Source: Botryllus schlosseri | Taxonomy: Eukaryota | Assembly (NCBI GenBank): GCA_051294905.1 | Contig: CM119373.1 | Coordinates: forward strand, 932,001 to 996,000 | Length of the DNA stretch: 64,000 nt | Reading direction: 5' to 3' | Shown: positions 17,472-62,033 of the stretch, one piece after another | How the letters are laid out: each line of letters opens with the position of its first letter | Position numbering within the stretch: the first letter of the stretch is position 1 | Program-made: the position numbers and the translations under genes | Notes under the pieces: generated by a model | Seen by the model: the letters and a program-made list of their open reading frames with translations, nothing else | What the model was told of the DNA's origin: nothing | Database searches by the model: none

Positions 17472-18216
17472 TTAATCCTCACCATTCATATCGCACACAC
17501 GGTGTACCATTGACTCATAAAACTGACCACTCAAGATATCATGGGTTACATTATCAAATTGGATATTCACAGCCGCTCTACTAGTTTCCTTTGCAAATTT
17601 CAGATATACATGCTGAACATAATACATGTACTCTTCAGATGGATATTTCAGTGACCCTGCCTTCCGCTCCATCATAAATAATAGGGATGATTGCCTAGGT
17701 AACTCATCAGAGTACAGAGTTTTCACAGCGATTAGTGGAAAGCGGCAAAATGCTTTCTTCAAAGTATAACCAGCAATGTACTCCAAGGCTTCATTTTCAA
17801 AGGCCTTTATCTCTCCACTAATCATTTTGTCTTCTTTTCCGTTGTTCATGGTGGCTATTTTTTTTTAAATATATCCAGCAATATTTTTGGTGGGCGGAAT
17901 GAGGTGTCTTGTACGAAGTACAACTTTGCATAGGTGCTTCCTTCGGATAATGATGGATTACAGTCGAGAGAGCCGGTGATTTGATGAATTCCATGATTAT
18001 TTCCGAAATTTTTTCTGTGCCGTAATCACTCAATGTTAGGGTGGAATCAACTTCGCTCAATACAGTTTGTGGGTTCGGATGTCCTACATTATCCGCACAG
18101 ACATCTCGGTTTGTCCTTTTTGGTAAAGTCTCGTCGTCCATATCCTCATAAAAACTCATGAACGAGTTTGTCCGTGAGAAAATCCCAGGAGAAATCATTA
18201 CAATCAGCAGTAGCAT
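17472..18216 (-). pseudogene. Frameshifted ORF with a P-element-type C-terminal motif (YIAGY..GSLKYPS)
   Basis: Overlapping ORFs 17818-18216 and 17472-17849; EALEYIAGYTLKK..RKAGSLKYPSEE resembles the YxAGY/GGLxxPS motif pair of P-type proteins. Confidence 0.5.
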
Positions 18217-18403
18217 CCATGTTGAAGCTATACCAGTATATCTGAAATAATAAACAATACGTATGTAATGGTATTTCTGAGTTGATAGATGATTACGGCT
18301 CTGGTAAAATCATCAGAAAGATCTTCAGAAGCCGCTATTTGCGTTCTGAATATTCCCGATTTCATGATACCATTCAGCAATAAATCCGGTAGTACTATAG
18401 TAT

Positions 18404-20687
18404 TGTGAAAACCCTGGTATTCGATTTGTAACAGTCCATAATTACATTGTTTCGTCACACTTGATTTGTTATACTCGCGCTTCCTTCGTAGAATCGCATG
18501 GAATGTTCGCTGAAGTTTTGGTAGACACGTGGTTTTTGGCTAGGGATGGAGCAGTAACGATTGTCTGTGTGTATTGTGTACTAGTGTACAGTACACTGGC
18601 GTATTTGGCTGTATTGAAGATTCGCCTTGGATTATGAAATTAAACTGATTTATATGGTCAACGGCTGGGCTCGTGTGTGTAACGTGTTAACAACCGTCCG
18701 TCGCCAGGAGAGGTTCCGGAACCCGAACACTCTGTTACGTCGTCCCCGCTAAGCAGTTATCGCCGAATCGGGGACGCTACAAAATTGGCGAGCACGCCAG
18801 GACCTCTTCTTAAAGTGACGGTTCGGTTGGAACGACATGGACTGGAAGACTGCCATGACGGAGCAGTGGCGTAGGGATGTTCTACAGAAGCTGTCGGACA
18901 AGGTACAGGCGTGCATTAACGGATACAATGAAAGGCTGCAGCGAGGGGACCAAGGGGCCGGAGTCACCGCTGGGATTGACCGTGTGCGCGACAGCCGGAC
19001 AGGGCTTCTTTCGGCTGGAACGAGCATTTCGAAGCGGAAATCAGAAGGCAAGAAGTCAGGCTTACCTGAGATTAAGACTGAGCAACAGAGCAGTGGCTGT
19101 CTTGACGACGCTGTGAGTGGGAGAGTAGACGCCCACTGGGATGGCACTGCTGCGGATGGACCTGCTTTGACGACACGAGCGTTATTGGCCGCGGAAGGCA
19201 AGGAGTCAGGCTTGCCTTGGACTGAGCAACAGAGCAGTGGCTGTCTTGATGACGCTGTGAGTGGGAGAGTAGACACTCACTGGGATGGCACTGCTGCTGT
19301 TGAGGCTGATTTGACAACACGTGTGTTACCGGCCACGGAAGGCATGGAGTCAGGCTTGCCTTGGACTGAGCTACAGAGTAGTGGCTGTCTTGATGACGCT
19401 GTGAGTGGGAGGGTAGACACCCACTGGGATGGCCCTACTGCTGTTGGAGCTGCTTTGGCGACGCGTGAGCTATCGGTCACGGAAAGCAAGGAGTCATGCT
19501 TGCCTTTGACTGAGCAGCAGGGTAGTGGCTACTGTGACGATGACGTGGGTGGGAGAGCGAACACCTACTGGGATGGCACTGCTGATGGAGTTGCGTCGAC
19601 GACATGCGCGATATTGGTCACGGAAGGCAAGGAGTCAAGCATGCCTGAGACTAAGCTGCCGTGTTCTGGCTGTCGTGACGACGAGGAAAGCAGGAAAACG
19701 GACATTTGCCGGGGTAACACTGCTGCGGACGGGATCGATTCGACGATACGGCCGGTTTTGGTCGTTGAGAGCAACGGTTCGTGTTTACCTGAGATCGAGC
19801 AGCAGGAGAATGATTGCCATAGTAATGCGGCTGCCGATGTTTTCTTCACTAAGCGTGAGAATAGTGTTGCGCTGAGTGCACGTGAGAGTTCAGCTGCCCA
19901 GGGATGTTGGAGCGAGCTGCGGAAATCCTTCGTCCCATTCGCGACCAACGGGATTTTTATTGAGTGTCTGAGGCTGACCATTCGGGGAGCGAGACAGACG
20001 ACGTCGAAGGAGCGAATCGGTGCAGTGACGTGAAGGAGTTGTAGAAATCGGACTGTGTGGGAATGACGAATTTGGAACGGACATTGTGGGAATGACGAAT
20101 TTGGAACGGACATTGTAGTTTAATCTTTTTTTTTTCTTTCGATTGAGTGGAACGAAGTGCTATACATTTGTATACTAGGCCTAATACTGTATGTGATTTG
20201 ATGAGCTAGCGATCACAACTGTCATTTGTAGGGTTGGTTAGTTGAGTAGATTTTGTGTGATTGAGATTTTTTTGTAGGGAAAATCCAATCAAGAAAGGTG
20301 AGGGTAGTGTGAAAACCCTGGTATTCGATTTGTAACTGTCCAGTAATTACATTGTGTCGTCACACTTGATTTGTTATACTCGCGCTTCCTTCGTAGAATC
20401 GCATGGAATGTTCGCTGAAGTTTTGGGTAGACACGTGGTTTTTGGCTAGGGATGGAGCAGTAACGATTGTCTGTGTGTATTGTGTACTAGTGTACAGTAC
20501 ACTGGCGTATTTGGCTGAATTGAAGATTCGCCTTGGATTATGAAATTAAACTGATTTATATGGTCAACGGCTGGGCTCGTGTGTGTAACGTGTTAACAAC
20601 CGTCCGTCGCCAGGAGAGGTTCCGGAACCCGAACACTCTGTTACGTCGTCCCCGCTAAGCAGTTATCGCCGAATCGGGGATGCTACA
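18404..20687 (+). mobile_element. Non-autonomous LTR retroelement (Gypsy-type cis signals)
   Basis: LTRs 18404-18781 and 20308-20687 (TG..CA; about 4 substitutions and 2 single-base indels between them); TSD GTAT; PBS TGGCGAGCACGCCAGG (tRNA-Arg(ACG)-like); PPT AAGAAAGGTGAGGGTAG at 20291-20307. Confidence 0.93.
18837..20033 (+). CDS. 398-aa orphan protein with ~5.5 tandem ~48-aa repeats, inside the LTR element
   Basis: Uninterrupted ATG..TGA ORF; repeat EGKESGLPWTEQQSSGCLDDAVSGRVDTHWDGTAA.. with a 144-nt period; no protease, RT, RNase H, integrase or CCHC motif seen. Confidence 0.65.
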   Translation: MDWKTAMTEQWRRDVLQKLSDKVQACINGYNERLQRGDQGAGVTAGIDRVRDSRTGLLSAGTSISKRKSEGKKSGLPEIKTEQQSSGCLDDAVSGRVDAHWDGTAADGPALTTRALLAAEGKESGLPWTEQQSSGCLDDAVSGRVDTHWDGTAAVEADLTTRVLPATEGMESGLPWTELQSSGCLDDAVSGRVDTHWDGPTAVGAALATRELSVTESKESCLPLTEQQGSGYCDDDVGGRANTYWDGTADGVASTTCAILVTEGKESSMPETKLPCSGCRDDEESRKTDICRGNTAADGIDSTIRPVLVVESNGSCLPEIEQQENDCHSNAAADVFFTKRENSVALSARESSAAQGCWSELRKSFVPFATNGIFIECLRLTIRGARQTTSKERIGAVT

Positions 20688-20865
20688 GTATGAATACTTA
20701 TTTACTCCCTGAAATTATCATACAAGTGTGGAATCGAAGTTGAAGTGAATTACAAGTGCTAATAACATCACCATATGTACATACTAAACTGCTGCACGAC
20801 GCCCGCTGAAGTGCTCAGCGTAACTGCTTGCGCAAGCGTGACGGCTGGGCCTGCGTAGTGCGTAT

Positions 20866-21323
20866 CAGAGTATAGATAACTAACCTACGTAGGTTAGTTA
20901 TCTATAATCAGAGATGAGCATGGATTAGGATTGAGTTTTGAAAAAACAGGATTTGTGAAATTTTGTCGGATTTGGATTGGATTTGACATTTTTTTTCATA
21001 ACGGATTAGGATTTGGATTGGATTTACCTATTTTCTGGGAGATTGAAATGTCGTGTGGCGAATGGCGACAAACTTTATTCAGATCAGTTATTAATGTACT
21101 TATGGTTACTAAGTTATCTTGAATCAAGTGAATCGTTGGTTATGAAAGAAAATTTTCGAATCCCTCCATTGCATAAATTGGTATTTTTCTGAATTTCCAT
21201 TTGAAATCGGATTAGGATTGGACATGGACTTGAATATGAAAAAGTTATGGATTAGGATTTGGATTAGAATTCGATGGTTTGGATTGGATTAGGACATATA
21301 AATTTCAAATCCGCTCATCTCTG
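20866..21323. mobile_element. hAT-type MITE (CAGAGATGAGC family)
   Basis: Same TIR as 2468-5595; TSD GTGCGTAT/CTGCGTAT (7/8); GGATT subterminal repeats; left TIR interrupted by the 36-bp palindrome. Confidence 0.8.
20871..20906. repeat. Perfect 36-bp palindrome flanked by a 7-bp duplication
   Basis: TATAGATAACTAACCTAC|GTAGGTTAGTTATCTATA, with ATCAGAG at 20864-20870 and 20907-20913. Confidence 0.9.
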
Positions 21324-22933: not shown

Positions 22934-24955
22934 CATATACGAGAAATCAAACGGTGGTCAGCCCAGGATATCACGTGATACATCCGTTACGTGTGTACCG
23001 CAAAATTATGCGCTTTAGTGGGTAAATTTTGATTTATGGCTGGAAAATTTTATGGGCAACTGGCAACTGCCCTCAGATCTGAAATTCCTGGTGTTTTACC
23101 TGGCCTGTTGTGATAAACTGAAATTTGATGATTTTATGTTTGTGTGAGTATATCACCAAAGCAGGATTTTAAGTGATTTTAAATGTCTAGCTAGGGTACA
23201 GTGAGTTTCGATGTAGAAACTTGGGCATATGATACTATATTGCCTAGGCCCTGCCGCCCAGGTAAGACTAAACTCCTAGTCGTTTCGTTCGGCATCTTCC
23301 TGTCATTCATTGTATTTCTGTCTTTTGATGTTTTGGAGTGATGAAATTTTATGAGTAAACTTGAACTTGAACGTCTTCCGGACCGGGTGTATACTGTGTA
23401 CCGTAGTCTACCGTACTTTCTTATCCACAAAGATATCAACACCACGAATCAGTACTCCCATGATCACGTCAAAATTTATGGCATTTACAATCGGTTTACG
23501 ATTAGGGATTAGGTTGACATGTCATAATATTATGGTAAGGGCTTGGTTGGGGCCACATAAAATTAGGGTTTAGGTTTAGGATTAGGATTCATTAGCTCAC
23601 AAAATTCTCAGAAGTTTCAGTGCCAGCACGGCACACAGTTATGAGTTCAATAATAATTTCATTTCAAAACACCACAAGACTGCGATATACAATGAAAGAC
23701 AAGTGTCAAAACGACTTGGACCAGTTGGTTTTTGAAATCAGTCACCCACCTGGGCCTAGAGTCAAGGTTTGGGAATCATATCTCTGTCTAATGGATGCAC
23801 TCCGTTCATTCATTTTGACTGAATAAGACAGTTGGTCATGGGTTGTATAATAAGGTAGTAAATAAGGTGTGGATAAGAAAGTTGACTAGACCCTAGTTGG
23901 GTTCTAGTTGTTTTCTTCTAAATCTTACTTCATGAATGGTGTAAAAGTAATCAATTCATCTTATATTGCCGTTTGCCACTTTGTGGCTATGTGAACAATT
24001 AACATAGCTCTTGTATATTAATTAAAATATGTAAGACAGACGGACATTTATGGATTCGTCAGTAATAAATTTTACTGAAGGTGACGATATGACCTATGAA
24101 GGCCTTGTTACTCGTCAACCTCCATGACTGAAGTGGGCTAATACTGTACTAATTTTTAAAATGTATATAACGGGACAGTCTGCAATAGAAGAAAATTATG
24201 GACACAAATATGTAACAAAGACAGTAGCCATGGTAACGTACTATATAAAGCAATATGAAATCAATAAGTACCGCAGTATAATATAGAAAGACTCTCAGAT
24301 GATATTGTCATTTGCAAAAAGGTAATCCAAGTTGTGAGTTTTGAATTCATGCTTCATTCTTCGATATTGTCAAGTACGCTATTGCAAATATTTGGGCCCA
24401 TATAGTCAATAGACTGTTAGGTCTGTCTAGATACCCATGCACAGTACAAGATTGCTAAAACAAGGTGGTATTAAAGTAAGGGGGTGGGGGTATTGGCGTC
24501 TGTAAATTTATGCATCAGGTTGGCTAGTTCATAATTATACAAATTGTAAACAAGAGAGACTACCAGGAGTTGGCGACAAAATACGGATATCTTTATCCAG
24601 AATTCAATCTCTCAAGTTGTAATAGTTGTATCGCATTAAACTTCTAATATATTTTAAAGCAACTTTTTGTCTCCTGGAAGTGTGCCGCGAGTGGCTATGC
24701 GCCTCAACCTGAAAAAGATTAGAAAGTGAATATAATATATTTAGGCAATCCGATTCTATGAGATACGTTAACACCAGACTTTGACAACTAAAATTTTTAT
24801 TTAGATCGTCAACATTTCGCTCAAATTAGTCTCAACAGCCAACTAGAATTATGTAATTGTCCATATCTGCCTGCTTAGCACATTGTATATATAATATGTA
24901 TGTTTTTATTACCCTCATTGCAGAATGACTTGAGTTGATAACAACCTTACGAGTT

Positions 24956-25601
24956 ATGCACTCAAGTGGGTTACTTGTTCTCTCATCTCATGTATCGGCA
25001 CTATGCAAGGGTGACGTGCTATCAAAGATTCTGAAAAATGCCAAGAAGCTGGTCAACTCTACGTTGTACGTTCACCTGAACAATGCCCATGCACCGCTCG
25101 GAGAGAACGCAAATTACTCTTGCCTACGTGACACCTTATCAAGGGGAATAGTAGCGCAACAAAATGCGGGTAACGCATTCCACGCAGATATGCTACCGTT
25201 TGTTGCAAAGTTCTATTCTGAAGCTTCTATTCTTTGCAACAACATTGATGTGAACCTGCTTCTACATAACATTGGCACTGATGCCAATGCACCGACAAAT
25301 CAATTCAACACCCCAATTAACTGCATCTTGATTGATCATCCAGCACCAAATCATTCGTTTTTGAGAGATTTTGTGGCATCAAGTCTTTGTGTTTGTGATA
25401 ATGACTCAAGGAACACAGTATTCTCAACTCCTGTGTACAGTGTGCTGGAGGATTTACAAATTCATGGGTCAGAGGAAGAATCATCTATGATTGGAAAATA
25501 TGATGCTACTGTCATAGGAGGCACTTTTGACCGCATTCATCATGGTCATAAGGTGCTAATGAGTGAAGCGATACTTCTTGCAAGGAGAAAGATTGTTATC
25601 G
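24956..25601 (+). CDS. COASY: COASY coding exon 1 (N-terminal region and PPAT HxGH motif)
   Basis: [29 protein letters not shown]; acceptor at 24923, donor GTAAG at 25602. Confidence 0.9.
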
Positions 25602-28600
25602 GTAAGGGATACCGGTACTTACATTAAAGGCATAGGCTTGCAAAGTAGCGCCCTTCAAAAAGAACTTCAAAATAATCCCAGACATTCAATTTTATTACTG
25701 TGTTGTGCACAATAGCGGTGTGCTAACTATATCTGTATCTCTTACTGTTAATTTATCAATGTGTATTAGGTCTGTTCCAAATTAACTTTGAAACAATTTG
25801 ATGCGGTACCGTAGCCAATATAATTTTAATAATTTTTATTACTACCTACTTCAAATGAATCCAACAATTTCTTCTAATACCAATGCCTCCACGGGTTGGA
25901 ATTGAGCCAAATTCAGTGTGTAACTTTTTATAGGAAACCTAACAATTTTATCGAGTAGCTCGTAAAATTAATAACAGGTATTTCTGAACACATAAATTAG
26001 CAGAATCTGCTTGAGATAGCCTACTTGAAGTTATATAATCTGAAGTTACTGTATACAATATTTTGTGGACAAAATAGTAATCAATTGTAATATGCAATGA
26101 GAAATCTTCCTGTGACCATAGGTGAAAAAATCAATATGATGCACACCTGCACTTATTCATGTGAAGATCACACAACTTAATTTCGAGTTACCTGATGATT
26201 TCCAAGATTTAGATTCTCATCTATTTTATTAAAAGCGCAGTTTTGATCATACTTAGACATCTAGATATTACTATTAGACTAATTAAAGCAAAATGTTGGT
26301 AATCTAATTCAAATCTAATTTCTGAAATGCTTATGCTATATATAATTTTAATTCTAATTAATTTCTGGTTTCCCGGAAAATTATACAGAACCTTAACCTA
26401 TGTTGCGAAACGAGCCAGGCTTACCATACAGACATATCCCGTTCTCATACTCGTGATAATGAACTCAGATTCATTCAGATTTGACATAAACTGAACTTCA
26501 TTCAATTACCAAATCTTTGCGAATTCAGTATGCCATTCAATCTAATTACGAAAAGCCTGTGTAGCTATAACTCTGATCAAATTTAGAAAAGCTGTATCTT
26601 TTCTAGTTGTCCGAATTTGGTGTCGATTTCATGATAGTCTGTGTTCAAGTGTCTAGCGTGGTAATTTATGGTGAATAGTAGTGACTAGTGACTGCATCAT
26701 ATGAATTACGCACTATTAGATGATAGGTGTATGCGAAAAGCATGATTTTGTGAGGAGTGTAACTCGGTCATCAGGTTGAATTTAGAAAAATATTTTGGAT
26801 TTCCCCATGATAATGACAGAAGAATCAATGTGCCAAATTTCATAGCCATCCATTAACCTTGGTTCTCATCTGAAAATAAATTTGCTCATTTGGCAGGAAA
26901 TTAACAGGAGACTTGAATATCTGTTATCTGGTAGCCTAGTGGCCAATCCTTACTTTTATATGCTTAACACATGACTGCAGGAGTCAATTCATAAGACATG
27001 AAAGTTGTGACAATGCCAGAAGCAGTGTGTTGGCTCTGTGAAATATGGAAAGCCACACAACCAACAGTGATTGATAAGCTCAGCCAATATGTGTATTCTG
27101 GTTATAGAATAATCCATCGATATCCCTGTGCAAGCAAAAATAGACACAGTATTCTTTATGGGTTCAATACACTTGTTATTTACTACAACACAGATAATTC
27201 TTGGACCAAACGAAACATGACAAGCTGATGCTAAAACGCTAGGAGCAATACAACAGTGTGACTACTGTATCAAATAATATTTCTGTCGATTTCGCATTCA
27301 TAGTTAGTTATTGGTTGGTGTGACTGAATTCGTTTGTATAATCTGTACACTAGTAATTTAGGCCTATCTATATTCTAAATCCCTCCATCCTATTTTAGGT
27401 GTTTCAGACGGACCACTCCTTGAAAGAAAAACTTTAAAAGAACTCATTCAACCTGTTGAAGATCGAAAAACGTCCTTAAAATGTTTTATCAGATTTGTTG
27501 CCAGGTATATATGCTTTTGTACTGTCTCCAATATATTCATATTTGATGAACTGTACTTTAGAATCCTGTTGATCGTTAGCACCAAAAATAAGTAACAAGT
27601 GATTGTTAATACTGCTATAACTCTTGGCAGTGAAATAATCAAGTGATCTATGTGCCAAATATTTCCAATAAAATGTTGGTTGCATGAAAACTCATTGTTG
27701 CAGTATAAGGTTCTTCCAAACAGCTTAAAACACAATACTACATAACTTGTGAGCATTTAGGAAGCTGCTGGAAGCTTTTGAAAAACTTGCCCCATATCAC
27801 TAGTCATAGTCGATCAATGTGCTACGAATTTGGTCAAATAAGCATCATTAGCAGCACATCACACTATTAGACAGCTAGCTTAGGCCGATACATACCTAAC
27901 GGAATAGTGAATATGAATATGGTAATAATGAATATGGTATGATTTTATTATCAGGCCGGATCTCGAGCTTCATTTGGAAACGATCACAGACCCGTATGGA
28001 CCGTCGATCACTGTGCCTGATTTGGACGTCATCTTAGTCAGCAAGGAGACGGAGAAGGGCGGGCATTTGGTGAACGCGAAACGGAAGGAAAGGGGATTGT
28101 CGCAGCTGAAAGTTCATGTTATCGGACAGGGTAAATTGTTGCTTGAATTCTCCTTACATGGGATCCATTGCACTAGTTAAGAGTTGAACATGCTACTGGA
28201 TTTTTGAAATGCGCATCAAGAACCGTTAACTTTTCTAACTGAAACTGGAACTAGCACTGCCGGTACTCATTTTTCAAAACTGGCAAGTGGAACTACCGTA
28301 ATTTTCCATGTATAATCTGCAAAATTTTCACGATTTTTTGCCCTAAAATAGGGGGGGGTGCGTATTATACATGGGTACAACAAACCTTGAAAAAAATCTC
28401 CCTCGATAAAAAACTTGAAATCACACCTATCTTCATGTTTGTTTCCAATCGTGCATCACTTTCAGCCATCGCGCGTAGTAATTATTGGGAAGAGTGTTGC
28501 AAATTAACGAGAGTCGTGTGCACAAGCACGCGATCTCCTGCTGAGTTGGTTTGCCATTTGTACGCGAGCGAAATTAGGTCACTAATAGACACTCGCGTGC

Positions 28601-31600
28601 ATCAATTCTCGCCAATTCATCGCGTCAAGGACAAGCCCGAACAATCGCATATGCAATTTAAACATACACAAGAGGCCATGTGCGCAAGATATAATCGCTT
28701 GCGTAATCAGTCGCATCTCCAACAGACCTGTTGCGCATGACATAACCGTTAGCCTAGGCGCAATCGCATCTGTAATAGGCATTGTGCGCAAGATGTCGGT
28801 TCGTTGGCCTAAACTAACTCGCCGCCGGCCTCGCAGGCTTTGGCTGCTATCTACTATCGTTTAGAGACAATGCCGTTAATTGTATAATGATTAGCAATCA
28901 CATCTGTAAAAGGTCTCCTCGTGCTCAAGATGTCGTGTCGCTAGCCTGAACTATCGTGCCGCCCGCCTCGTAGGCTTTGGCTGCTATCTACTGTCGTTTA
29001 AAGACAATCCCGCTAATTGTATAATGATTAGCGATCGTTGTGTAATGATTGTTCAAGAGTGACATCGCAAAACAGAATGACAGCGAATACAAATCGGAAC
29101 TATTCATGTACTGAAATGCAGGGTGCGTACTATACATGGGTACAGGCTTTTTCCCGGAATTTACATGCTATTTTAGGGGTGCGTTTTATACATGGGGGCG
29201 TACTATACTTGGAAAATTACGGTACTCAATTATCAAAGCTCGCGTCTAGTACTAGAACTACTCAATTTTAAAAATAACTCAGTTTTCAAAACTTGAAACT
29301 AGAACTATAGCCTACAATCATCAAAATTAGCAGCTAGAACTACTCAATTATCAAACCTTGCAACGACTTTTGAAAATACTCGACTAAAAGACAAGTAACT
29401 GGATTTAATTCAGAGGTAGCTTATTAATTATTGGAATCAGATCAGTTTTCTCATGAACGTCACTACCGTACGAGTTCAAAATGCCTACCCACCAAGCCTG
29501 TGGCTACAGGACCATCACCACCATCACCATCTAGGAATAGTACGTTGAGCTTGAGTGCTCTCTCTGCCCCGGTTATTCCAAATTTCATGCCAGAGTGATG
29601 CCATATTTCATGATACAATTGTTGATATACGATGTTCTTTCCTATTCTTTAACTAGTTGCTGACTATTAACCCCTGATGAGTGTCAGCCGAAAATATTCA
29701 GGTTCATTTCAATATCAATAGCCTATACTACTCCATTGTGTATTGAAGAATTTCTTCAAATAATTGTAATTCTAGTGTAATCTGAAAAAAAATGTATCGC
29801 TATAATTGTAATCCTAATCTAATTTGTTAAAAATATAATCCTTATTCTCGTCTCAATTGTAAGAAATGATTGTTTAGGAATAATTTTATTTCTAGTATAA
29901 TTTGGGATAAAATGTGTCGCTGTAATTCTAATTCTGGTCTAATTTCAAGAAATGAACTATAGCTATAATTGTAATCCTAATCTAACTGAAAAAAAACCGT
30001 AGCTATAATTCTAATTCTAGTCTGATTTGGAAAATAACTGTGAAGCTGCACGATAATTCTAATTTTAGTCTAATTCTAATCCTAATTTGAAAAATAACTG
30101 TAGGGCCTATAGCTAGTATTCTCATTCTAAACTAATTTGGAACAAACTGCACAGCTATAATTCTAGTTCTGGTCTTATTGGAAAAAAGATAACTGTGTAG
30201 CTATAATTCTAATCAAATTTATGAAAAAACGCGACTATAAATTATAGCCCATATTTTTGATGACTCGAGTCATTTTCTCTCAATATGGCAATGAGTCGAA
30301 CCAATTCATATTAGTCGAGACTCAGACGGCCAAGTCCGACATTTCATTATCATTTCGAAGAACAGTAAAGTGACCGCGCTATTGGGATTTTTTCCGTTGT
30401 TACTGGTACTTCGAAATGCGACCAGATACTGCTAAAAGTGAGTATATTATAAATGCGAACTATTCGATATCAACGGAACAGAGTCATGAAAAGTGGGTTT
30501 AACAACTTTAACTGACTTAGATTCCGACTTGAGTCATAAGGCTATGACTTGGACTTGACCCTCTGCTCCATGACTTGAACTCGGACTTGACTCGGTGGTG
30601 ATTTGAAAATGACTCGACTTGACTCGAGTCAAAACTATAAGAGTGAGTTCGACTTGTGTATGACTCGCAGTCTTGTGACTTGATTTCTGAACTTAATTTT
30701 ATTCGGAAGAACTGAAAATTTTCTAGTTTCTTAACTCTGCACCCAGGTAACCTATTTGTCCATCCCTATCCCTGACCCAGATACACTCGATTCTGACCAG
30801 TAATTTATTTTGCGTAGGTACCTTGCTCGGAGAAACAGAAAATGCAATCGACGATATTCCATTCGAAGAAATAAAAGTCAGTTCGTCCAGTGTCAGATTC
30901 AATCTGCTCGGTACGCTGTTGAAGCCTGCGAGAACGCCGACACACGATTTCATTCCCGAGTCTCTGCCTAAGCCTTACGTAATCGGTTTGACCGGGGGTA
31001 TAGCTTCCGGGAAATCGTCAATAGCCAAAAGACTTGAAAACCTGGGTGCAATCGTTATTGACTGCGACAAGCTAGGACATCAATCTTACTTGCCCGGCTC
31101 GAGGGCAAATCTTGAGATAGCCAAACATTTCGGCAGTGATATCGTGGACGATAACGGAGTGATTAATCGGAGAGCTCTGGGGGAGAGAGTGTTTTCCGAT
31201 AAGCGGGAAATGGACAAGTTAAATTCTATCGTGTGGCCAGAGATAGAATCGTTATGCAAGAAGGAGATTGTCACGTCTGTAGAGGTATGTGCGTTGATCG
31301 ATTCTTTCCTTTAGTGGTATTGACAATATGCAACATTGTACACTAGGGGTGTTCAGAAATGACTTTACCTCTCAAATTGTACTGGCTTTTGTTAGGTTAC
31401 CTAATTGAAGCCTGCACACAAAATTTGGTTAATTTCCAACCAGTAGCCGCATTGCTACAGGAGACGAAAGTTTTTTATTTATTATTAAAAAAATATATAT
31501 ATAAAAAAATTTCAAAATTTTTTGTTCACCCCATGAAAGTGTTAGGTTGTCTATAGAAACGATGTCCACCAAATTTGGCTCAATTCCAACCAGCGGAAGC

Positions 31601-51004: not shown

Positions 51005-52448
51005 AGATTACCAGAGAACCCGGCCCTTGGAGAACCCGGCCCTACCAACTCGGCCCTCGGAGAACACGGCCCTTGGAGAACCCGGCCCTCGGGAAATTTT
51101 GTATATCAAGCACGCGTGGTCTACTTGTTGTGGTATTCACGGTGTTTTTCGACTACTCTGGACCTCGGAGAATGCGGCCCTCGAACAATTTTGAATTAAA
51201 AATGCATTAAATGTGAAGCCGGCCCTCATGAAATATTGTATTCACCGGCAACCCTAATATCCCACCTCCGGCAACCCTAATATCCCACCTCTACCAACCC
51301 TAATATCCCACCCCCGGCAACCCTAATATCCTAACCCTAATATCCTACCCCAACCCTAATATCCCCCCTCCCCAACCCTAATATCCCACCCCCGGCAACC
51401 CTAACCCTAATATCCTACCCCAACCCTAATATCCCCCCTCCCCCAACCCTAATATCCCACCTCCGGCAACCCAAATATCCCAACCCTAACCCTAATATCC
51501 TACCCCAACCCTAATATCCCCCCTCCCCCAACCCTAATATCCCACGTCCGGCAACCCTAATATCCCACCCCGGCAACCCTAATATCCCACCTCCACGAAC
51601 CCTAATATCCCACCCCCGGCAACCCTAATATCCCACCTCCACGAACCCTAATATCCCAGCCCCGGCAACCCTTATATCCCACCCCCGGCAACCCTAATAT
51701 CCTAACCCAACCCTAATATCCCCCCTCCCCCAACCCTAATATCCCACCCCCGGCAACCCTAATATCCCACCCCCGGCAACCCTAATATCCCACCCCCGGC
51801 AACCCTAATATCCCACCCCCGGCAACCCTAATATCCCACCCCGCCAACCCTAATATCCCACCCCCGGCAACCCTAATATCCCACCCCCGGCAACCCTAAT
51901 ATCCCACCCCCGGCAACCCTAATATCCCACCCCCGGCAACCCTAATATCCCACCCCGGCAACCCTAATATCCCACCTCCGGCAACCCTAATATCCCACCC
52001 CGGCAACCCTAATATCCCACCCCGGCAACCCTAATATCCTAACCCTAACCCTAATATCCTACCCCAACCCTAATATCCCCCCTCCCCCAACCCTAATATC
52101 CCACCTCCGGCAACCCTAATATCCCGCCCCCGGCAACCCTAATATCCCACCCCCGGCAACCCTAATATCCCACCCCGGCAACCCTAATATCCCACCTCCG
52201 GCAACCCTAATATCCACCCCGGCAACCCTAATATCCCACCTCCGGCAGCCCTAATACCTCACCCCCGGCAACCCTAATATCCAAATCACACGTCTGCTTC
52301 TCGCCAAGTCAATTCAATAATGAGCCGACCACGCGTGTTGATAATAACATTATTACTTTATTAATTCATATTAATACTCGTGAATACACTTTTCCCGAGG
52401 AATTTTCCGAGGGCCGGGTTCTCCAAGGGCCGGGTTCTCCGGCAACCG
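51005..52448. mobile_element. 6-bp-TSD element (CGGTTGCC-type ends) carrying a minisatellite
   Basis: TSD TTTAGC at 50999-51004 and 52449-52454; inverted GAGAACCCGGCCCT subterminal repeats; right end CCGGCAACCG. Confidence 0.8.
51245..52282. repeat. ~23-bp minisatellite CCGGCAACCCTAATATCCCACCC with CCCTAA variants
   Basis: About 1 kb of tandem units with higher-order variant blocks (CCTAACCCTAATATCCTACCCC). Confidence 0.95.
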
Positions 52449-58945: not shown

Positions 58946-61750
58946 TTAGCAGAGTAGCACGAGTGCCGTCACTGATTCTCGTAACCACCTGTCCATGTTA
59001 GGGAAAACGTAATGCCGTTTAGCCAATGCCAACGTCGCGCGCATTCCGGGGTGCGAAAGAGAATGTACATGTTCAAACAATTCACGCCTCATATGACGTG
59101 GGACCCACGCTCGTGGAATTACAGACGACTGCTGTGATTTAACGCCGATATCTGGGACGTGACAAATCACGCCCATCTCAAACCCAACCAACTTCAACTC
59201 TCTTAACTTCAAACCAGTCTCACTCAAGTACGCTCACGAAATTCTGTCAATTCCTTGTCCTCCTGTTGTGCCGCTGCAATACGCTTGATAAAATCAGGCT
59301 TCAAACCCTCTGGTACGACAAATTCATTAATCTCAACACGGGACAAGCAATCAGAAACGGAGTTGAAAATACCGCGGATACACGTAGTTTAGTTCACAAA
59401 GTAATTAATGTACTCAAGGTACCGAAACATGGCTGGGTCAGCACATTCCTTCGGATTGATAATCATCTTAGCCAACACCTGACCGTCCGTGACAAGGCTC
59501 ACTGACCTGCCCATGCAAAAATCTCGAAAATGCTGCAGAGCCATGTATACAGCGTACGTCTCTCTCTTCACAGCTGACCATTTTCGCTGAGACTCATTTA
59601 AACTCTTGCTGAAGAAAGCCAGAGGTACATATCTCCCATTTTGGTACTCATTGATTACTGCGCCCAACGCAACTTGACTTGCATGTGTGACAAGCTGTAT
59701 AGGTCCTTTGAACTTCGGAAAAGCCAATTTTGCTGCATCTATCAAAGCTGATTTGATCTGCTCAAATGCATTCTGCGCCACACTGGACCATTTGAGCTTA
59801 CTCCGAGCATTTGTTCCTTTCAATAAATCATAGAGCGGCTGCATAATAGACGAGCAATTCTTGATACTTCTCGAATAATAGTTGATCATGCCGATCATCC
59901 TTCTCACCTCACGAATAGTCTTTGGCACTGGAAATTTCACAATCGCCTCAACTCGTCTGGGATCTGGCCTGATGCCATCTTTGTCAATTAAAAACCCCAA
60001 AAATCGAACTGACTCTGCTCCGAACTTACACTTCTCAATAGACAACGAAAGGGACTCACTCTTCAATTTCTCAAAAATTACCCGCAACGTCTCCAAATGA
60101 GACTTCGTCAGGCGTCGCTACCACAATATCATCACGATACAGAAAAGTATTAGGAATATCCCCAAGCAACTCGTAAGCCAATTTACACCATTGATCTCCA
60201 CTGGACCGAAAACCGAACGCACACACATTGTACTGAAATTTACCGATTTCCTTCACATAAAACGCTGTCAAATGGCGGTCTGATTCCGCCACCTCAATGT
60301 TGTGGTACGCGCTTGCTATGTCAAGAGTGGAAAATACTTTGGCCCCTGCCATTTGTGTACGCATCGACGCAATATTCGGTAATGGATAACACTGAGGAGC
60401 CACATGCGAATTAAAGTAACGATAATCGATGCAGAACCGCACACCGGGAGGTTTGCCCTCAACGTGACTCTGTTTTGGAACACAAACGATTGGAGAGCAA
60501 AAATCCGAATCCGATTTTGAAATTACACCGCGCTCCAACATATCTTTAATTTGTCGCCGAACTTCTAACAAATACTGGGGTGGGATCGAACGTGGCTTCG
60601 GAGATCTTAGATAACCGAACGTTTTTATTCGCATGGCATGTTTCATTTCGCGCCGTTTAACAGGTTGCCGGACCAAGATCTCCGGAAACTCTTTGAGTAA
60701 CTCAGCGTATGGCGTGCGTTCATTCGCGTCGATATGCGCGATAAGAGACGAAAATTTGTTTTGAGACAATTTTATTACAGTACTGCGGTCACGAGTCGCG
60801 AGTTCATCCAATTCTGGATCTAAAAGCAATTTATGTTTTTTCATGAAATTCCAACCCAATATTGGCTTCGACACTTCGGTTATTACAAAAGGACACTCAA
60901 GTGGCTCATTATTACCGAACTGCAACTTCATACCGAACTGCAACTTCAAAGTTTTAGTGCCATACGCATTAATCACAGAACCATTTGCTCCCCGAAATTG
61001 CCATTTCGGCGTATAGTGCCGAATCACATGTTCACTCGCTGGTAAATTAGAAATCATGGAACCACTGTCACTCAAGAAATTCAAACCATTTAATTTATCA
61101 AACGCATAAGCCAGATACTCAAAATCAAAAGAATTAATACTTGGACCACTTGGATAGAAACCACTGCCATATAGTCATGAACTACGATCAAAACATTTAC
61201 GTTCACGATAGGCTGAAAAGCTCCGATCACCATATCGGTGATGATTCTGGCATACCCATTCAGTATTACTGCCACCTCGGGTACCGACGTTGCCGCCCCG
61301 ATAACATCGCGTACCTCCGCGGTTTGACTCAGCCCCATTCTGCGTCATGGGAGAATGGTTCAAAGAGTCATTGCAATCATCACTTGGTTGCACTTGAACG
61401 CCAGCCATTTTCAATTCCGCCATTTGGTTCTCCATCCTAGCAAGTTGCTTACTTATCGACTCGATAAACTTCGTATCTTCCTCAGCTCTAGCCACGCGCA
61501 AATTTCCCTGTTTTTCCACACTTACTTCATTAGTTTGAATTGAGTTATTACCGGGATTCGACCCCCCATACAGCTCAACCGCGCGCTGACACATAGTATC
61601 AAAATCATCTCTATAATGTCCACGTAATGCGAAAGCGATGTCGGGCATGCAGTACTGCAAGAACACGTGACGCTTGAATCCCGCGATATACGGTGAATTA
61701 TCGGCACCCGCACACTCATTAATCCGCGATCGCAACCTTCTGGAGTCAAT
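58946..61750 (-). mobile_element. Gypsy/Ty3 LTR retrotransposon internal remnant (gag, PR, RT, RNase H, integrase zinc-binding part)
   Basis: Gag with WVCQNHHRYGDRSFS; PR FLSDSGS..PILGWNF; RT SPIVCVPK..RFCIDYR..TLDIASAYHNI..LYRDDIVV; RNase H VTHASQ..GAV..AFFSKSL..RETYAV; IN H..SHPG..T. Frameshifted; integrase core and LTRs not found. Confidence 0.92.
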
Positions 61751-62033
61751 TATACAACTACAAACATTCGCTCTGCGTTATATGGTTGCAATTCTTCGTC
61801 TCTTCTGAGTAGGCGCTTTTCGTTTGTCAATTCTTCTTGCGAGAACGTCGCGATGACTCTTGATGTATGTCCTCGTCACTGATTGCTGATTGATCCTTCT
61901 CACCGTCGTGCAAGGCGAATTTTAATCTTGATTGTCTTCGGCCGGTCGGTCTTGATTAATTGAACGTCGGAAGGTCAACCATATAACGCAGAGCGAATGT
62001 TTGTAGTTGTATAATTGACTCCAGAAGGTTGCG
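61731..62033. repeat. Perfect 58-bp inverted repeat with a 187-bp spacer
   Basis: 61731-61788 is the exact reverse complement of 61976-62033. Confidence 0.9.

What the first reader, a model, noticed from the sequence alone, without database searches (positions are those of the whole stretch)
18404..20687. Young non-autonomous LTR element whose only content is an intact tandem-repeat protein
Seen: complete cis signals (near-identical LTRs, GTAT TSD, tRNA-Arg-like PBS, PPT) and one stop-free 398-aa ORF starting ~35 nt after the PBS. The ORF has ~5.5 copies of a ~48-aa unit that diverge progressively while keeping frame, and no gag or pol motif. It is the only TE-borne gene in the window that looks undisrupted. 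Inference: a TRIM/LARD-like parasite encoding a novel, possibly selected protein, for example one that aids packaging by a helper element.
Basis: partly seen in the sequence, partly recalled or inferred. Interest (0 to 1): 0.72.

Follow-up and report, generated by a model that had tools for sequence, protein, structure and literature searches.

The report
Parasitic retrotransposon keeps a drifting frame
This is a recently inserted, enzyme-less jumping gene whose two sister families keep one long repetitive reading frame free of stop codons while its amino acids change almost freely, so each copy likely needs its own RNA translated end to end in order to be copied, likely by a full-size helper element.

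Summary
Observation confirmed: 378/380-bp LTRs (98.4% identical), 4-bp GTAT duplication, 18-nt tRNA-Arg(ACG) PBS, PPT and a 398-aa ORF with a 48-aa unit; no gag or pol domain. The genome holds this family (A, 7 copies with ORF sequence) and a sister family (B, 43-aa unit, 5 copies). 8 of 9 young copies, 4-9% apart, keep the frame open. There are 0 in-frame stops where about 8 are expected (P about 4e-4), and 7 of 8 ORF indels are in frame against 4 of 22 outside it. Yet dN/dS is 0.75 (A) and 1.1 (B), neither different from 1. It falls to only 0.5-0.7 between families, like Gag spacers (0.5-0.9) and unlike Gag capsid (0.10-0.26) in this genome. So selection keeps the frame and barely constrains the protein. 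Autonomous Ty3/Gypsy elements with the same PBS, PPT and LTR ends exist. No protein relative was found except one unnamed 205-aa sequence; Gag ancestry is unproven. Best reading: translation in cis is needed, resembling mouse IAP 1delta1. Non-coding sister parasites thrive without an ORF, which argues against a general need. This scan noted the same open-but-drifting pattern in four unrelated retroelements on other genomes.

The parts
18400..18403 (.). left target-site duplication GTAT
   Evidence: single GTAT in 5 of 5 empty paralogous targets
18404..18781 (+). 5' LTR, 378 bp, TG...CA
18786..18803 (+). primer binding site, 18 nt, complementary to host tRNA-Arg(ACG) 3' end
18837..20033 (+). 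398-aa ORF; ATG 56 nt after the LTR end, the same spacing as the gag ATG of autonomous family H2 (55 nt); stop 274 nt before the 3' LTR
18843..18944 (+). predicted N-terminal helix (residues 3-36), the only part folded with confidence; motif shared by families A, B and P0002
19044..19830 (+). array of about 5.5 units of 144 nt (48 aa), acidic, predicted disordered
20049..20116 (+). 29-nt duplication in the 3' untranslated part, private to this copy among the five A copies aligned
20291..20307 (+). polypurine tract, similar to those of families B, T, H1, H2 and G
20308..20687 (+). 3' LTR, 380 bp; candidate poly(A) signal ATTAAA at 20545-20550
   Evidence: single-cell reads pile up just upstream
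20688..20691 (.). right target-site duplication GTAT

Best explanation
The element is a non-autonomous LTR retrotransposon, likely copied by a Ty3/Gypsy helper, whose single frame is kept open by selection that likely acts on each copy's own RNA being translated from the gag-position start to a stop near the 3' LTR, with little constraint on the residues made. Shown: the cis signals, the copies, the lack of stops and frameshifts, near-neutral dN/dS, and autonomous elements with the same PBS, PPT and LTR ends. Inferred steps: (1) The LTR drives a plus-strand RNA that ends in the 3' LTR (weak read support). (2) Ribosomes run through the ORF. (3) Only RNAs translated to the end survive decay (a premature stop would leave up to about 1.5 kb untranslated) or reach the sites where helper Gag assembles. 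(4) Helper RT and integrase copy them using tRNA-Arg. (5) Resident copies drift neutrally, and the filter at the next transposition removes only those that lost the frame. The need must be in cis, because a product acting in trans would let frame-broken copies spread. The repeats are then in-frame filler that grows and shrinks by whole units.
For: Frame: 8 of 9 copies with LTRs at least 98.4% identical are open, at 90.6-96.4% identity within families. 216 variable states in shared ORF columns include no stop, against 7.9 expected (P 3.6e-4). Polymorphic stops among the 8 open copies number 0 and 0 in the ORF frame against 9, 14, 8 and 14 in the other sense frames. ORF indels are multiples of 3 in 7 of 8 cases, against 4 of 22 in the same elements' non-coding parts (Fisher p 0.001; p 0.017 without the three whole-unit indels) and 7 of 43 in non-coding sister families. 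Residues: omega is 0.74-0.75 in A (p 0.18 against 1) and 1.02-1.14 in B (p 0.54), with variation about equal at the three codon positions. The same method finds omega 0.10-0.26 in Gag capsid+NC of three element sets here. AlphaFold2 gives mean pLDDT 26 outside one helix. Unit number varies freely (337-423 aa), while the stop stays about 220-275 nt before the 3' LTR in 8 of 8 open copies. Precedent: the IAP 1delta1 fusion ORF acts in cis (PMC6466679, PMC7411935, passages read), and Ty1 RNA nucleates assembly sites while being translated (PMC3945221, abstract).
Against: Families T and D use the same PBS and ends, are young and at least as numerous (19 copies examined), and have no long ORF, so translation is not a general need for parasites of these helpers. 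Between A and B there is weak purifying selection: N-terminus omega 0.49-0.52 (p 0.007-0.013) and repeat units 0.64-0.69 (p 0.004-0.018). A conserved helix and a shared C-terminal I-G-x-V-T end also hint that the product matters. One young copy (L003) is frameshifted. B has an out-of-frame ATG 20 nt upstream of the ORF start. Translation itself is not shown, and RNA depth is very low. Only 9 intact copies were available, and the window copy was chosen for being open.
Confidence: 0.52

Rival explanations
1. The protein itself acts in cis as a tether or spacer: the N-terminal helix and/or the C-terminal end binds helper Gag, a membrane or a host factor while still on the ribosome, and the acidic repeats are a length-tolerant disordered linker.
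For: Omega is 0.5 on the N-terminus and 0.64-0.69 on units between families, the range of the Gag pre-capsid region (0.52-0.88). The helix motif is kept in A, B and P0002 at 34-51% overall identity, and the helix folds at pLDDT 77-90 alone. In a DNA-guided A/B alignment third positions differ more (62 of 142 against 86 of 283, p 0.009).
Against: No region shows omega below 1 within a family (6 of 6 regional tests not significant). Copy L004 has six replacements in residues 5-49 yet is young and intact. There is no capsid, zinc knuckle or strong hydrophobic segment in A. Protein-guided alignment biases omega downward. P0002 lacks the C-terminal end, though it may be cut off.
Confidence: 0.27
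2. On origin (compatible with either function): the ORF is the worn 5' third of a gag gene of an H2-like element, in which capsid, nucleocapsid and pol were deleted and a linker segment was amplified.
For: The ATG sits at the gag position (+56 against +55), and the leader and PPT region resemble H2. Gag here also begins with a predicted coiled-coil-type segment followed by a fast-evolving linker. One weak hhalign match links a unit to the H2 linker (E 0.2, probability 0.3%).
Against: No significant match: shuffle z at most 3.5 over 126 comparisons, the best ones being to an unrelated Gypsy family; hhalign probability below 1% in all 13 comparisons; nhmmer finds nothing; blastn matches only the ends.
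Confidence: 0.35
3. The product acts in trans, for example to modulate the helper or counter host silencing, and benefits all copies.
For: A novel soluble acidic repeat protein is made from a single-gene element; antisense accessory ORFs of unknown function occur in plant Retand elements (PMC11963269, abstract).
Against: A trans product would not keep nearly every independent lineage open (8 of 9), and near-neutral omega gives no sign of a conserved interface or of an arms race.
Confidence: 0.08
4. The open frame is a by-product: a stop-free 144-nt unit was amplified and the copies are too young or too few to show decay.
For: Omega is about 1; one antisense frame is also nearly stop-free (1-4 stops); the unit length is a multiple of 3.
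Against: The copies are 4-9% apart and the units up to about 30% apart, yet no stop occurs. Indels are frame-biased. The three old copies do decay, with stops and frameshifts in 3 of 3. The repeat RNA folds no better than shuffles (z -0.8).
Confidence: 0.05

Closest known systems
Mouse IAP 1delta1 subtype (Saito et al. 2008, doi 10.1101/gr.069310.107: not held, known only from passages and reference lists in PMC6466679 and PMC7411935)
   Same: Non-autonomous LTR element that needs Gag and Pol in trans but keeps one open frame reported to aid its own retrotransposition in cis.
   Different: The 1delta1 frame is a recognisable gag-pol fusion in a mammalian endogenous retrovirus; here the frame has no detectable gag or pol homology, is mostly tandem repeat, and the cis effect is inferred from evolution only.
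TR-GAG / semi-autonomous elements, e.g. wheat RLG_Quinta with helper RLG_Cereba (PMC11302176, abstract and section 5 read; PMC13570524, passages read)
   Same: Single-ORF non-autonomous element sharing PBS, PPT and LTR termini with an autonomous Ty3/Gypsy partner.
   Different: Their ORF is a clear Gag; this one has no capsid or zinc knuckle and evolves almost neutrally. Family G in this genome is the true TR-GAG-like case (capsid+NC omega 0.17).
TRIM and LARD (PMC13570524, passages read; PMC3532108, search listing only)
   Same: Intact LTRs, PBS, PPT and no enzymes.
   Different: At 2.3 kb it lies in the 1.5-4 kb range for which PMC13570524 says no term exists, and it carries a selected open frame. 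That TRIMs and LARDs are non-coding is recalled and consistent with those passages.
Plant Retand elements (PMC11963269, abstract read)
   Same: Gypsy-type elements with tandem repeat arrays and extra ORFs of unknown function, some non-autonomous.
   Different: Their extra ORFs are antisense, lie between pol and the 3' LTR and carry a conserved TRP28 domain; here the ORF is sense, at the gag position, and is the repeat array itself.

Membership tests
Non-autonomous LTR retrotransposon (Ty3/Gypsy-dependent) | paired TG...CA LTRs with a short target-site duplication | tested here: met
   4-bp TSD in 7 of 9 intact A/B copies
Non-autonomous LTR retrotransposon (Ty3/Gypsy-dependent) | tRNA PBS and PPT | tested here: met
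Non-autonomous LTR retrotransposon (Ty3/Gypsy-dependent) | no RT, RNase H or integrase, yet several dispersed young copies | tested here: met
Non-autonomous LTR retrotransposon (Ty3/Gypsy-dependent) | autonomous partner with the same PBS, PPT and LTR termini | tested here: met
   H1 (L031) and H2 (L047 and kin), domain order PR-RT-RH-IN; which one helps is not settled, and LTR interiors are not alike
Non-autonomous LTR retrotransposon (Ty3/Gypsy-dependent) | mobilisation by the partner shown | not testable with these tools
   inferred from shared cis signals only
TRIM | miniature size and non-coding interior (definition partly recalled) | tested here: not met
   2,284 bp with a 1,197-nt ORF
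LARD | large (about 4 kb or more) and non-coding (definition partly recalled) | tested here: not met
   size gap noted in PMC13570524
TR-GAG / semi-autonomous | ORF is a Gag with capsid and nucleocapsid | tested here: not met
IAP 1delta1-like cis-acting ORF | ORF derived from gag-pol of the helper | tested here: inconclusive
   same start position, no significant homology
IAP 1delta1-like cis-acting ORF | translation needed in cis for retrotransposition | not testable with these tools
   evolutionary signature fits; no experiment

The most novel reading that the evidence does not exclude
A class of LTR parasites has replaced gag-pol with a dummy gene: a repeat-built, freely drifting frame whose only job is to keep the parasite's RNA on ribosomes from the gag start to near the 3' LTR, so that it escapes decay and is routed into helper particles. 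With the similar cases this scan noted in LINE-, Penelope- and Gypsy-dependent elements, translation as a passport would be a general rule for non-autonomous retroelements.
Probability: 0.35. Interest if true: 0.75.

Novelty: new variant of a known kind. Interest (0 to 1): 0.52.

Why it matters
Non-autonomous LTR elements are usually sorted into non-coding (TRIM, LARD) or Gag-keeping (TR-GAG) types. This genome holds all three strategies on one helper clade (non-coding T and D, Gag-keeping G, and open-but-drifting A and B). That makes a natural comparison of what a parasite RNA needs in order to be packaged. It also warns annotators that a long stop-free, frame-selected TE ORF need not mean a conserved protein.

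Tried and rejected
Protein relatives: no hit in three searches of the 5.8-billion set. The 1.84-billion representative search gave 2 hits: P0002 (205 aa, 51% identity, unnamed, Logan only, cluster of 1) and P0003 (E 6e-4, a 32-residue low-complexity match, rejected). No usable ESM Atlas hit for the whole A protein or the B N-terminus. Pfam: nothing above cut-off. The fold search of the N-terminal model against viral structures gave nothing; the full model was too poor to search. Gag ancestry: not significant by any test; a 9-residue look-alike between P0002 and H2 Gag falls inside a degenerate repeat unit. Complex prediction of the N-terminal helix with the helper Gag N-terminus returned no answer, and the alignments were not used. 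RNA structure: the repeats fold like shuffles, and the 3 Rfam matches are far below their gathering scores. Expression: no listed holder is on record as RNA. Contigs of guessed-RNA runs X1 and X5 cover most of the ORF but may be DNA, and bulk run X24 has no reads on the element. The empty-site contig in X13 and reads in X21 do not show that the insertion is polymorphic, because the target has at least 5 empty paralogs in this genome. No third family was found in this genome using P0002. Ten paper searches listed no description of such an element; Repbase/Dfam, subscription papers and supplements were not seen, so a library entry may exist.

Full report
Observation. The element is as described. 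It spans 18404-20687 with LTRs of 378 and 380 bp that differ by 4 mismatches and two 1-nt indels. It is flanked by GTAT on both sides and sits in a dispersed repeat whose 5 of 5 examined paralogs carry one GTAT and no insert. The PBS at 18786-18803 matches host tRNA-Arg(ACG) genes found in the same genome. A PPT precedes the 3' LTR. The ORF 18837-20033 encodes 398 aa: about 70 unique residues, about 5.5 units of 48 aa and a tail of about 70 residues. The window lies in a 496-Mb eukaryote genome in 219 contigs. An earlier scan note calls the host a tunicate; I did not test that.

Copies. A DNA search gave 18 matches, which resolve into two families. Family A has 5 intact elements (window, L002, L003, L004, L005) and 2 old interrupted ones (L026, L024); its LTR gave 29 matches, many of them unpaired. 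Family B has 4 intact elements (L020-L023) and 1 old interrupted one with ORF sequence (L019), and a 129-nt unit. A further B remnant (L063) gave no alignable ORF and was dropped. All 9 intact elements have LTR pairs within 0-4 mismatches, yet best alignments between members of a family are only 90.6-96.4% identical. So several separate lineages moved recently. 8 of 9 are open, at 337-423 aa; L003 has a private 7-nt duplication that shifts the frame and no in-frame stop in 68 changed codons. The 3 old copies have stops and frameshifts, and insertions. A third relative, P0002, comes from an unnamed public assembly and is not in this genome. A, B and P0002 share the N-terminal helix motif and the unit.

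The frame is selected. Gap-free ORF columns hold 123 (A, 5 copies) and 93 (B, 4 copies) variable states and no stop. A random point change makes a stop with probability about 0.035-0.038 here, so 7.9 are expected and P(0) is 3.6e-4; the model ignores CpG effects. Among the 8 open copies, polymorphic stops number 0 in the ORF frame and 9, 14, 8 and 14 in the other sense frames; this count is conditioned on the copies being open. Gap events in the ORF are multiples of three in 7 of 8 cases (6, 144, 12, 6, 129, 3, 129 against 7). In the same elements' non-coding parts the figure is 4 of 22 (p 0.001; 0.017 without whole-unit events), and in non-coding sister families 7 of 43. Repeat units differ at about 30% of positions within an element, with all gaps in frame and no stop.

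The residues are barely selected. Codon models give omega 0.74-0.75 for the 4 open A copies and 1.02-1.14 for the 4 B copies, neither different from 1. None of 6 regional tests within families is significant. At greater depth there is weak constraint: N-terminus A+B 0.49-0.52 (p 0.007-0.013) and units A+B 0.64-0.69 (p 0.004-0.018); units within A or B alone give 0.74-0.83, not significant. As a control, the same method gives 0.17, 0.26 and 0.10 for Gag capsid+NC in three element sets and 0.88, 0.73 and 0.52 for their pre-capsid regions. AlphaFold2 gives mean pLDDT 26 with one N-terminal helix; residues 1-70 alone give a helix at 3-36.

Helper. The pattern LTR end + PBS occurs 107 times. I examined 39 of these sites, besides the 11 that belong to A and B, choosing mainly those with a spacer like A's. 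Two autonomous Ty3/Gypsy families share the PBS, a similar PPT and the LTR 3' end with A and B. H1 (L031) has open gag and pol frames and identical LTRs, and was the only close full pol match in the genome. H2 (L047, L037, L051, L058) has stops or frameshifts in the copies seen. A's LTR 5' end resembles H1, while its leader and PPT region resemble H2; blastn finds only these ends in common. The same cis signals serve three more parasites: G (gag + protease + unrelated tail), and T and D (non-coding interiors of about 725-880 nt). The first ATG after the PBS lies at +56 in A, +55 in H2 gag, +53 in T and +56 in D, so A uses the gag start position. Descent of the ORF from gag could not be shown.

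Expression. In 3-6% samples of four RNA runs, depth on the ORF was at most about 6 per direction in one bulk run, about 3 in a second and 0 in a third. A single-cell run put second-mate reads on the plus strand over the 3' untranslated part and the first half of the LTR, at depth up to 14, just upstream of an ATTAAA. If the library is a usual 3'-tag type (assumed), this fits a rare sense transcript ending in the LTR. Translation is not shown.

Mechanism. Each young lineage kept its own frame while its residues drifted, so the benefit is likely in cis and needs read-through of the whole array. I favour translation of the RNA itself (0.52): protection from decay or routing to assembly sites. A cis-acting tether protein is the main rival (0.27). 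The closest precedent is mouse IAP 1delta1, whose gag-pol fusion is reported to act in cis (PMC6466679 and PMC7411935, passages; the primary paper was not held). Ty1 RNA nucleates assembly sites while being translated (PMC3945221, abstract). The main evidence against is that T and D prosper with no ORF, and that weak residue constraint exists between families. I recorded this reading before seeing four earlier scan notes that report the same open-but-drifting pattern in other retroelements; they are unchecked AI notes and not independent evidence.

Papers seen. PMC11963269: abstract. PMC11302176: abstract and section 5. PMC13570524, PMC10924933, PMC6466679 and PMC7411935: passages. PMC3945221: abstract. 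All others: search listings only. No supplements were read.

Verdict. Real; a new variant of a known kind (an ORF-bearing non-autonomous Ty3/Gypsy-dependent element whose ORF is not recognisable Gag). The novel protein is likely the lesser part of the story; the selected open frame is the finding. Interest 0.52.

Noticed in passing
L036, L043, L044, L045, L048, L056 (also L079, L081, L085): Family G: gag + protease kept from an H1-like element (87% DNA identity), RT-RH-IN replaced by an unrelated lysine/arginine-rich tail that continues the pol frame for about 250-340 codons in 5 of 6 copies; capsid+NC omega 0.17, tail omega 0.81. A TR-GAG-like parasite in an animal-type genome.
   Followed up: partly
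L027, L029, L030, L032, L033, L035, L039, L042, L046, L049, L050, L052, L055, L057, L059, L061 and L028, L040, L060: Two non-coding non-autonomous families (D, LTR over 700 bp; T, LTR about 435 bp) with the same PBS; many have LTRs 99-100% identical over the part compared, and most keep an ATG near the gag start position.
   Followed up: partly
window 18400-18403; L036, L044, L056: GTAT is the target duplication in 4 of about 19 insertions read across these families, at unrelated flanks; possible target preference, not tested statistically.
   Followed up: no
L020:797-2041 minus strand; window 18749-20119 minus strand: One antisense frame is nearly stop-free (1-4 stops in all 8 open copies; 415 codons open in L020), probably a by-product of sense codon use.
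   Followed up: partly
window 17472-18403 and 20692-20860: The target is a dispersed repeat with at least 6 other matches; a nearby frame has a sub-threshold P-element transposase match.
   Followed up: partly
window 20865-20912: Near-perfect 24-bp-arm hairpin with no loop, next to a GGATT-rich repeat that draws many RNA reads from elsewhere.
   Followed up: no
window 24929-31314: Exons of a likely host CoA synthase gene (cytidylyltransferase-like and dephospho-CoA kinase matches).
   Followed up: no
window 59389-61777 minus strand: Broken Gypsy-type gag-pol split over several frames.
   Followed up: no
window 51245-52282: C-rich 23-bp tandem array of about 43 copies flanked by short inverted-looking repeats.
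   Followed up: no
L026:4277-5436; L019; L024: Old A and B copies are interrupted by multi-kb insertions; in L026 these include frames that look by eye like a LINE endonuclease and a Copia-type gag (not tested against Pfam).
   Followed up: no
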